DNA from: Escherichia coli
GTDB lineage: Bacteria > Pseudomonadota > Gammaproteobacteria > Enterobacterales > Enterobacteriaceae
Assembly (NCBI RefSeq): GCF_003334255.1
Contig: NZ_QOWU01000146.1
Reading direction: 5' to 3' (one strand)
Length of the DNA: 1,840 nucleotides
Shown: one piece after another, positions 433 through 475 of the stretch
How the letters are laid out: every line of letters begins with the position of its first letter
Numbering within the stretch: position 1 is the first letter of the stretch
Notes under the pieces: model-generated
Databases searched by the model: none
What the model was told of the DNA's origin: nothing
Seen by the model: the letters and a program-made list of their open reading frames with translations, nothing else
Made by a program: the position numbers and the translations under genes

Positions 433-475
433 CACAGGATGTGGTGATGTGGCAGTCTGGAACACAGGATATATT
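433..475 (+). promoter_or_regulatory. Short direct repeats and a -10-like hexamer upstream of the lipoprotein gene
   Basis: CACAGGAT at 433-440 and 463-470 (30 bp apart). GATGTGG at 438-444 and 446-452 (tandem). TATATT at 470-475 is a 5/6 match to TATAAT and sits about 28 bp upstream of the ATG at 503. No convincing -35 hexamer, so the promoter call is weak. Confidence 0.2.

What the first reader, a model, noticed from the sequence alone, without database searches (positions are those of the whole stretch)
433..475. Direct repeats CACAGGAT (x2) and tandem GATGTGG immediately upstream of the lipoprotein gene
Two 8-mers 30 bp apart and a tandem 7-mer between them lie right over the likely promoter of the TonB_C lipoprotein gene, ending at a TATATT -10-like hexamer. 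They may be binding sites for an activator or repressor of this gene.
Basis: seen in the sequence. Interest (0 to 1): 0.2.

Follow-up and report, generated by a model that had tools for sequence, protein, structure and literature searches.

The report
Chance repeats in a prophage promoter
The short repeats really are in the sequence, upstream of a prophage gene for a TonB-like lipoprotein, but they sit in the least conserved part of that upstream region and are lost in the gene's other alleles, so they are most likely incidental, not regulator binding sites.

Summary
In detail: CACAGGAT lies at 433-440 and 463-470, GATGTGG-T-GATGTGG at 438-452, and TATATT at 470-475. They sit 28-70 nt upstream of a TonB_C lipoprotein gene (ATG 503).

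The window is the Rz-to-cos region of a phage 21-like lambdoid prophage, and the gene is a moron. A 99.8% identical copy in E. coli LF82 prophage Perceval is transcribed above its silent lytic neighbours at a nearly constant level. A promoter therefore lies close upstream.

Each repeat alone occurs at chance frequency. The combined arrangement is rarer (0.6% of shuffles), but that test was defined after the fact.

This allele is nearly invariant within E. coli (about 1225 genomes), so that says nothing. In the three diverged alleles (B, B2, C), 431-475 is the worst conserved stretch (32-37% identity). The repeats, their spacing and TATATT are all lost.

Two flanking blocks are conserved at a fixed 47-49 nt distance: 411-430 (GTCRGATAAT) and 475-488 (TGTYAGAAT, extended -10-like). 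In allele B the spacer in this stretch (19 nt before TAGAAT) is the mutational hot spot.

The promoter idea is plausible; the operator idea is not supported. No transcription start data exist. Interest is low.

The parts
433..440 (+). CACAGGAT, copy 1 of the 8-mer direct repeat
   Evidence: Not kept in alleles B or C.
438..452 (+). GATGTGG-T-GATGTGG near-tandem repeat with period 8. The second unit covers ATGTGG (447-452), the only -35 candidate 17 nt before TATATT.
   Evidence: Alleles B and C have a single TTGATGA.
463..470 (+). CACAGGAT, copy 2. By position it falls in the stretch that is the promoter spacer in alleles B and C.
   Evidence: The spacer in this stretch of allele B (19 nt before TAGAAT) is the main site of variation among 26 distinct variants.
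470..475 (+). TATATT, a -10-like hexamer (5 of 6 matches), specific to allele A
   Evidence: Own PWM total 7.0, below the mean best score of shuffles (8.3). It is GGCATT in allele B and ACATGA in allele C.
475..483 (+). TGtCAGAAT, an extended -10-like element, conserved as TGtTAGAAT in B and (TGAT)TAAAAT in C
   Evidence: It is invariant in all allele B variants. In B it is the best promoter-like site, TTGATG-19-TGtTAGAAT, score 11.7.
411..430 (+). Conserved upstream block TGTAATGTGAGTCAGATAAT. It contains an invariant GATAAT and a CRP-like TGTAA-N6-TCAGA (8 of 10 core positions).
   Evidence: Identity is 80% (A/B) and 75% (A/C), against 32-37% for 431-475. It lies a fixed 47-49 nt before the -10-like block. 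The CRP-like match is at chance level on its own.
493..496 (+). Shine-Dalgarno sequence AGGA, 6 nt before the ATG
   Evidence: A ribosome binding site is annotated at the same place in phage 21.
503..829 (+). TonB C-terminal-domain lipoprotein gene (108 aa, WP_000830178.1), a prophage moron
   Evidence: Transcribed in an LF82 lysogen.
921..945 (.). 12-bp-arm hairpin between the convergent TonB_C gene and the minus-strand 59-aa gene; a candidate bidirectional terminator closing the cassette
   Evidence: I3, 92% complementary. Not flagged by the terminator scan because the T-run is not adjacent to the stem.

Best explanation
The repeats are incidental sequence coincidences in fast-evolving, unconstrained DNA. 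That DNA lies between two conserved elements of a weak, roughly constitutive promoter that drives a prophage moron, the TonB_C lipoprotein gene of phage 21-like lambdoid prophages.

Shown: the gene is transcribed from the prophage independently of the lytic genes. The stretch holding the repeats is the least conserved part of the upstream region. The flanking blocks and their spacing are conserved.

Inferred: RNA polymerase uses a -10 region at 470-483. In this allele that is TATATT (470-475), TGtCAGAAT (475-483), or both; in the other alleles it is the homologous TGtTAGAAT or TAAAAT. The 411-430 block acts as an upstream promoter element or activator site held at a fixed distance. The repeats matter at most because one GATGTGG unit and the second CACAGGAT happen to fill the -35 and spacer positions.
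For: 1. Context. The window is 98.6% identical to phage 21 from 202 to cos. It contains the Rz/Rz1 end, the TonB_C gene, cosQ, cosN, the cosB R sites and the Nu1 start.
2. Autonomous transcription. LF82_160 reads 5.0-6.6 log2 fpkm in all ten samples, against 2.3-3.7 for Rz and 2.3-4.3 for the small terminase subunit. It is not differentially expressed in macrophages (log2FC 0.26, q 0.13). bor, 480 nt upstream on the other strand, changes about 100-fold.
3. Conservation across the eight-sequence alignment of alleles A, A2, B, B2 and C. For 431-475 identity is 17/46 (A/B) and 15/47 (A/C). For 411-430 it is 16/20 and 15/20. For 476-488 it is 12/13 (A/B).
4. Spacing. The distance from GATAAT to the -10-like hexamer is 47, 48 and 49 nt in A, B and C, while the neighbouring segments carry indels of 4-17 nt.
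5. Variation within allele B. Across 26 distinct variants, TTGATG has one variant and TGTTAGAATAAGAC has none. Nine of the 19 spacer positions vary.
6. Promoter scores. The best promoter-like site of B (11.7) and of C (10.2) is at the aligned -10 position.
7. Each repeat alone is at chance frequency.
8. CACAGGAT occurs 4 times in phage 21 against 1.36 expected, and 6 of 100 shuffles reach 4. None of the other copies lies at an annotated regulatory site.
Against: The bracketed arrangement occurs in only 0.6% of shuffles, so pure chance is not comfortable, even though the test is post hoc.

Allele A has no convincing sigma-70 promoter. TATATT with ATGTGG scores 7.0 and TGtCAGAAT scores 3.2, against a shuffle mean of 8.3, and the built-in scan finds none on the + strand. 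Yet the allele is expressed, which leaves room for an activator that substitutes for a -35 exactly where the tandem lies.

The allele A upstream region is almost invariant in about 1225 E. coli genomes. That is compatible with recent spread, but also with constraint.

No transcription start has been mapped, and only five growth conditions were sampled.
Confidence: 0.65

Rival explanations
1. The CACAGGAT pair, the GATGTGG tandem, or both, are binding sites of a host or phage transcription factor. The factor activates or represses the allele A promoter, for example by replacing the missing -35 at TATATT.
For: Allele A lacks a usable -35 but is transcribed. The second GATGTGG unit sits exactly at the -35 position for TATATT. 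The combined arrangement is rare in shuffles (0.6%). The 30-nt spacing is close to three helical turns.
Against: The repeats, their spacing and TATATT are absent from alleles B, B2 and C of the same gene in the same genomic position. Allele B varies most in the spacer that occupies this stretch. There is no match to the CRP or Fur consensus within the repeats. The motif is not enriched at other phage 21 regulatory regions. Expression in LF82 is nearly flat across conditions.
Confidence: 0.12
2. The promoter lies further upstream. GATAAT (425-430), invariant in all alleles, is the -10. Transcription starts near 437, and the repeats are transcribed as part of a roughly 65-nt 5' leader.
For: GATAAT and the 10-15 nt before it are the best conserved part of the allele-specific upstream region.
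Against: No -35 is present in any allele, and PWM totals are 2.8-5.5, below the shuffle mean. The leader would carry no conserved sequence. It folds no better than shuffles (z +1.06), and there is no Rfam match.
Confidence: 0.15
3. The repeats are coding sequence of the 45-aa ORF 348-485, which is annotated as a hypothetical protein (CPT_21_72) in the phage 21 record.
For: The ORF is open in allele A and is annotated with a ribosome binding site in OL657228.
Against: In allele B the ORF stops after 21 codons. In allele C the ATG is AGG. Indels that are not multiples of three separate the alleles. There is no PHROG family, PGAP does not call it, and the proposed binding site is weak.
Confidence: 0.03
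4. The tandem GATGTGG arose by replication slippage (an 8-bp duplication) and is a neutral scar.
For: There are two perfect units of period 8, and alleles B and C carry a single related TTGATGA.
Against: The distance between the conserved anchors is the same in A, B and C (47-49 nt). A duplication would therefore need a compensating deletion.
Confidence: 0.1

Closest known systems
Prophage morons of lambdoid phages (lambda bor and lom; the HK97/HK022 moron concept), from general knowledge, and the LF82 moron survey (PMC9928086)
   Same: It is a single accessory gene inserted between the lysis cassette and cos. It is present or absent among otherwise similar phages. It is transcribed from the repressed prophage independently of the late operon. 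It encodes an envelope lipoprotein, as bor does.
   Different: Its promoter has not been mapped. Its product is a TonB C-terminal domain rather than a Bor/Iss-type protein. A terminator is only suggested by the hairpin at 921-945.
Extended -10 (TGn) sigma-70 promoters
   Same: TG at 475-476, one base, then a hexamer with A at position 2 and T at position 6 (CAGAAT). The element is conserved as TGtTAGAAT in allele B, and the -35 is weak or absent.
   Different: The allele A hexamer matches only 4 of 6 positions, with C at position 1. No start site is known. A start about 7 nt downstream would leave a leader of only about 12 nt in allele A.
Direct-repeat operators of response-regulator-type activators (for example PhoB or OmpR boxes), from general knowledge
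   Same: Short direct repeats overlap the -35 region of a promoter that lacks a -35.
   Different: Known boxes repeat every 10-11 bp and are conserved in orthologous promoters. Here the 8-mers are 30 bp apart, the 7-mers 8 bp apart, and neither is conserved.
Class I CRP-dependent promoters
   Same: A TGTGA-N6-TCACA-like site (8 of 10 core positions) is present in all alleles. It is centred 59-61 nt before the conserved -10-like hexamer, which would be about -71.5 to -73.5.
   Different: The match is at chance level in the window (1 found, 0.91 expected). No crp-dependence data exist. This concerns 411-426, not the repeats.

Membership tests
Sigma-70 promoter (-35/-10) | A -10 hexamer with A at position 2 and T at position 6 | tested here: met
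   TATATT at 470-475 (5 of 6) and CAGAAT at 478-483 (4 of 6).
Sigma-70 promoter (-35/-10) | A -35 hexamer with at least 4 of 6 matches, 16-18 nt upstream, and a combined score above random sequence | tested here: not met
   ATGTGG matches 2 of 6. The total is 7.0 against a shuffle mean best of 8.3 (95th percentile 11.55). The built-in scan reports no + strand site upstream of the gene.
Sigma-70 promoter (-35/-10) | A mapped transcription start 6-8 nt downstream of the -10 | not testable with these tools
   No start-site data were found for this allele. The EDL933 Cappable-seq tables held have no row for a 'TonB family' gene.
Extended -10 promoter | TG one base upstream of the -10 hexamer, conserved in orthologues | tested here: met
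   TGtCAGAAT at 475-483. It is TGtTAGAAT and invariant in all allele B variants. Allele C has TGATTAAAAT, one base out of register.
Transcription-factor operator made of direct repeats | Repeats and their spacing conserved in orthologous promoters | tested here: not met
   The 431-475 stretch is 32-37% identical between allele A and alleles B or C. The repeats are degraded and differently spaced.
Transcription-factor operator made of direct repeats | The motif recurs at other targets, or matches a known consensus | tested here: not met
   In phage 21 CACAGGAT occurs 4 times against 1.36 expected. The other two copies lie in sitD and upstream of bor on the other strand. The tandem has one 2-mismatch hit inside sitB. 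No CRP or Fur match lies within the repeats. Only two consensus sequences were tried.
Transcription-factor operator made of direct repeats | Protein binding and an effect of repeat mutations on expression | not testable with these tools
   This needs EMSA, pull-down and reporter assays.
Prophage moron | Transcribed from the repressed prophage, independently of the neighbouring lytic genes | tested here: met
   From the literature, for a copy 99.8% identical over window 323-840: LF82_160 is 8-fold above the prophage median, while Rz and the terminase gene are near background (PMC9928086).
Prophage moron | Accessory: present or absent among related phages at the same position | tested here: met
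   Window 200-322 is found in 2239 of 5426 E. coli genomes. At least 80% of the query (window 200-900), gene included, is covered in 1221 of them, and the upstream stretch 323-520 is found in 1225. Stx phages share 1-322 only.
Prophage moron | Its own terminator | tested here: inconclusive
   There is a hairpin at 921-945, but no adjacent T-run, and the scan does not call it.
cis-regulatory RNA leader | Stable or conserved structure, or a match to a known family | tested here: not met
   The fold of 431-520 is -12.8 kcal/mol, z +1.06. Rfam gives no match at E <= 1.
Small protein gene (ORF 348-485) | Reading frame conserved in other alleles | tested here: not met
   The ORF is truncated to 21 codons in allele B and has no start codon in allele C. 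No PHROG family matches.

The most novel reading that the evidence does not exclude
The repeats are an allele A-specific operator. A host or phage factor binds CACAGGAT or GATGTGG and supplies the missing -35 function. This would give the commonest allele (about 1225 of 5426 complete E. coli genomes) a regulation different from alleles B and C. The gene itself is a TonB C-terminal-domain lipoprotein that might interfere with TonB-dependent uptake of phages or colicins.
Probability: 0.08. Interest if true: 0.3.

Novelty: not a real feature. Interest (0 to 1): 0.08.

Why it matters
It matters little. If the repeats were operators, they would give a handle on how a very common E. coli prophage accessory gene of unknown function is controlled. 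The evidence instead points to ordinary, unconstrained promoter-spacer DNA.

The more useful by-products are these:
- a conserved promoter skeleton for this moron family: block 411-430, a fixed 47-49 nt gap, and the extended -10-like element at 475-483;
- the demonstration that the 45-aa ORF annotated in the phage 21 record is probably spurious;
- the reminder that the function of the TonB_C lipoprotein itself is unstudied.

Tried and rejected
- Rfam search of the whole window at E <= 1: nothing.
- RNA folding of the putative leader 431-520: no better than shuffles.
- RNAalifold of the conserved backbone 220-345: a plausible fold but zero compensatory pairs, so no RNA element is claimed.
- Fur box, tried because the gene is TonB-related and phage 21 and Perceval carry sitABCD: no match with up to 3 mismatches.
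- CRP consensus: the single 2-mismatch hit is at 411-426, outside the repeats, and at chance frequency. It is kept only as a weak lead because it falls in the conserved block.
- Motif recurrence in the phage 21 genome: no regulon-like pattern.
- The 45-aa ORF as a gene: rejected.
- Slippage origin of the tandem: not supported by the anchor distances.
- Transcription start data: searches for UPEC, CFT073, LF82 and EDL933 start-site maps gave nothing usable.
- More diverged alleles: two scans of viral contigs returned only alleles A and B. The protein search found allele C and B2 in single contigs. The family appears confined to E. coli prophages, so deeper phylogenetic footprinting was not possible.
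- PADLOC: no defence-system match for the three proteins tested.

Full report
**What the window is.** From position 202 to the cohesive end site, the 1840-nt window is 98.6% identical to Escherichia phage 21 (Jouyvirus, OL657228) and to many E. coli prophages. Reading the annotated records beside it gives this layout:
- the end of the Rz/Rz1 spanin genes (1-191);
- an intergenic backbone shared by many lambdoid phages (about 200-362);
- a 108-aa lipoprotein gene with a TonB C-terminal domain (ATG 503, stop 829; PF03544, E 9e-13; TIGR01352 47.4 bits against a cut-off of 27.1);
- a hairpin at 921-945;
- minus-strand small ORFs (952-1513);
- cosQ, cosN (GGGCGGCGACCT at 1593-1604), the cosB R-site repeats (CATGTCCGG) and the Nu1 start (1788).

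In phage 21 and CFT073 the bor/iss gene sits between Rz and this module. In the window and in its exact match, strain Eco889, bor is absent.

**Checking the observation.**
- CACAGGAT at 433-440 and 463-470;
- GATGTGG at 438-444 and 446-452, separated by one T, so the period is 8;
- TATATT at 470-475, 27 nt before the ATG.

In dinucleotide-preserving shuffles of the window, an exact 8-mer pair within 40 nt is expected 1.1 times and a 7-mer pair 7-10 nt apart 0.52 times. Neither repeat is unusual alone. The window has four such 8-mer pairs; two belong to the cosB R sites. The specific arrangement, an 8-mer pair bracketing a near-tandem, occurs in 0.6% of 3000 shuffles. That is uncommon. However, the pattern was defined after it was seen, in a scan that looks for many kinds of pattern, so it is not strong evidence.

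**Is there a promoter here at all?** Yes, somewhere close upstream. Prophage Perceval of E. coli LF82 carries this module; it is 99.8% identical over window 323-840 (H117, product 'TonB fragment'). In LF82 transcriptomes this gene (LF82_160, 327 nt) was listed as a moron, 8-fold above the prophage background (PMC9928086 Table 1). In the supplementary table it reads 5.0-6.6 log2 fpkm in all ten samples. Rz upstream reads 2.3-3.7 and the small terminase subunit gene downstream reads 2.3-4.3. bor, 480 nt upstream, is on the opposite strand.

Transcription therefore starts between bor and the ATG and is independent of the late operon. The level changes only about 3-fold across the five conditions in the table. 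The gene was not differentially expressed in macrophages (log2FC 0.26, q 0.13), whereas bor changed about 100-fold. This looks like a weak, roughly constitutive promoter, at least under those conditions.

**Conservation.** The allele in the window, here called A, is nearly invariant. The 198 nt before and across the start are at least 99% identical in 1121 records and 95-99% identical in 105, out of 1225 E. coli genomes that carry it. Within-allele comparison is therefore uninformative.

The same gene, in the same position between the lysis genes and cos, also exists as diverged alleles:
- allele B, 71-72% amino-acid identity, in phage JLK-2012, Lys8385Vzw, Stx1a phages and many IMG/VR contigs;
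- allele B2, 67% (L089);
- allele C, 85% (L088).

In an eight-sequence alignment the backbone 196-322 is 79-85% identical between alleles. The allele-specific part begins near 363. Inside it, two islands stand out. Block 411-430 (TGTAATGTGAGTCAGATAAT, with an invariant GATAAT) is 80% (A/B) and 75% (A/C) identical. Block 476-488 (GTCAGAATAAGAC) is 12/13 identical between A and B.

The finding's stretch, 431-475, lies between these islands and is the worst conserved part: 17/46 (A/B) and 15/47 (A/C), close to what unrelated sequences give after alignment.
- The 8-mers correspond to CAGAGGAT and GACAGGGT 17 nt apart in B, and to TACAGGTA and TACAAGGG 28 nt apart in C.
- The tandem is a single TTGATGA in both.
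- TATATT is GGCATT in B and ACATGA in C.

**Where the promoter probably is.** I scored sites with a simple sigma-70 weight matrix of my own, built from textbook hexamer frequencies.
- In allele B the best site in the whole upstream region is TTGATG-19 nt-TGtTAGAAT. It scores 11.7, which is the 95th percentile of the best scores of shuffles.
- In allele C the best site is TTGATG-19 nt-TAAAAT (10.2), at the aligned position.
- Among 26 distinct allele B upstream variants, TGTTAGAATAAGAC never varies and TTGATG varies once. Nine of the 19 spacer positions between them vary. This is the classic footprint of a promoter: fixed hexamers and a free spacer.
- In allele A the homologous element is TGtCAGAAT (475-483). 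It keeps the TG and the critical A and T of the hexamer but scores only 3.2. One allele A contig (L036) has the C478T change that restores TAGAAT.
- TATATT, eight bases upstream, is the better hexamer. Its only -35 candidate is ATGTGG, for a total of 7.0, below the shuffle mean of 8.3.
- The tool's own scan finds no + strand promoter here.

So allele A has a plausible -10 region at 470-483 and no -35. The second CACAGGAT lies in the stretch that is the variable spacer in allele B. The second GATGTGG unit lies where a -35 for TATATT would be.

**A spacing constraint.** The distance from the invariant GATAAT to the -10-like hexamer is 47, 48 and 49 nt in A, B and C, although the sequence between them has been almost completely replaced. 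The segments on either side carry indels of 4-17 nt. This suggests that the two conserved blocks work together at a fixed distance, and that what lies between them is filler.

Block 411-430 contains a CRP-like TGTAA-N6-TCAGA (TGTGA-N6-TCGGA in B and C, 8 of 10 core positions). It is centred 59-61 nt before the -10-like hexamer, about -71.5 to -73.5. It is the only such match in the window, but 0.91 are expected by chance. I record it as a weak lead only.

**Alternatives examined.**
- *Small ORF.* The repeats lie inside a 45-aa ORF (348-485) that the phage 21 record annotates as a hypothetical protein. It is cut to 21 codons in allele B, has no start codon in allele C, has no PHROG family and is not called by PGAP. 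It is not a gene.
- *RNA element.* A transcribed leader is unsupported: the fold z-score is +1.06 and there is no Rfam match.
- *Phage-wide regulator.* CACAGGAT occurs four times in phage 21 against 1.36 expected, a count that 6 of 100 shuffles reach. The other two copies lie inside sitD and, on the other strand, upstream of bor. The tandem has only one 2-mismatch relative, inside sitB.
- *Fur.* There is no Fur box.
- *Slippage.* A slippage origin of the tandem does not fit the unchanged anchor distance.

**Verdict.** The repeats themselves are best explained as coincidences in unconstrained DNA between conserved promoter elements (confidence about 0.65).

The operator reading is not excluded (about 0.1). 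Allele A lacks a -35 yet is expressed, and the combined arrangement is uncommon. It has no positive support, however, and it fails the conservation test.

The transcription start is unknown. I found no start-site data for this allele. The EDL933 Cappable-seq tables held in the library list no start for a 'TonB family' gene, but those files are truncated.

The finding is ordinary and of low interest. The uncharacterised TonB_C lipoprotein, present in about a fifth of complete E. coli genomes, is the more interesting object, but it is not what was flagged.

Noticed in passing
window 336-350 and 394-408: A 15-nt direct repeat, TATCCCGGTGCGATG / TATCCCGATGCGATG, 58 nt apart. It is longer than the flagged repeats. 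The first copy exists only because allele A lacks 16 nt (CCTCATAGTCGCCTGT) that TUM1886 and alleles B and C have, and the second copy is not conserved in B or C. It is probably incidental.
   Followed up: partly
window 340-361: CCGGTGCGATGGTGGAAGAAAC is almost invariant in all alleles, although it lies at the edge of the diverged zone. Its function is unknown. It contains the ATG of the spurious 45-aa ORF.
   Followed up: no
window 348-485: This 45-aa ORF is annotated as hypothetical protein CPT_21_72 in the phage 21 GenBank record. It is not conserved in alleles B or C and is probably a false gene call.
   Followed up: yes
window 195-223: TTGTTG-17 nt-TATATT is the best-scoring promoter-like site upstream of the gene (10.7). 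It exists only in the bor-less junction variant (the window and strain Eco889). Phage 21, CFT073 and W284 have CGTATT there.
   Followed up: partly
window 503-829: The TonB C-terminal-domain lipoprotein has no characterised function. PHROGs files it in phrog_1267, labelled 'Rz-like spanin' (E 5e-43), apparently a label by position. There is no PADLOC match. It occurs in three or four alleles, all in E. coli prophages.
   Followed up: partly
window 952-1513, minus strand: RefSeq annotates a 59-aa protein (952-1131; phrog_4843). Upstream in another frame is an unannotated ORF with a signal-peptide-like start (MKIRNILAISLATSSFSCLA, 1196-1444) that overlaps the 117-aa ORF 952-1305. This may be a frameshifted or decayed gene. 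The phage 21 record instead annotates two + strand ORFs here, and allele B loci have a DUF3950 gene at this place.
   Followed up: no
window 921-945: A hairpin, AGGCGTTGTATG-C-CACACAACGCCT, lies between the convergent TonB_C gene and the minus-strand gene. It is a candidate bidirectional terminator that the terminator scan did not call.
   Followed up: no
window 1563-1760: This is a phage 21-type cos region: cosQ (about 1563-1569), cosN (GGGCGGCGACCT at 1593-1604), and cosB R3, R2 and R1 seen as CATGTCCGG repeats in direct and inverted orientation (D2, D3, I4, I5). These are the statistically strongest repeats in the window and are known terminase-binding sites.
   Followed up: partly
L006/L007 about 1470-1486 (allele B): In allele B the -10-like element is part of a 7-3-7 palindrome, AGAATAA-GAC-TTATTCT. 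It is nearly invariant in the allele B variants (one variable position in the right arm; the left arm and loop never vary) and is absent from alleles A and C. It could be an allele B-specific operator or an RNA hairpin.
   Followed up: no
LF82 prophage Perceval (PMC9928086 S1 Table): bor, divergently oriented 480 nt upstream of the TonB_C gene in phage 21-type prophages, rises from about 4.2 to about 11 log2 fpkm between conditions, while the TonB_C gene stays flat. The two morons are therefore regulated independently.
   Followed up: no
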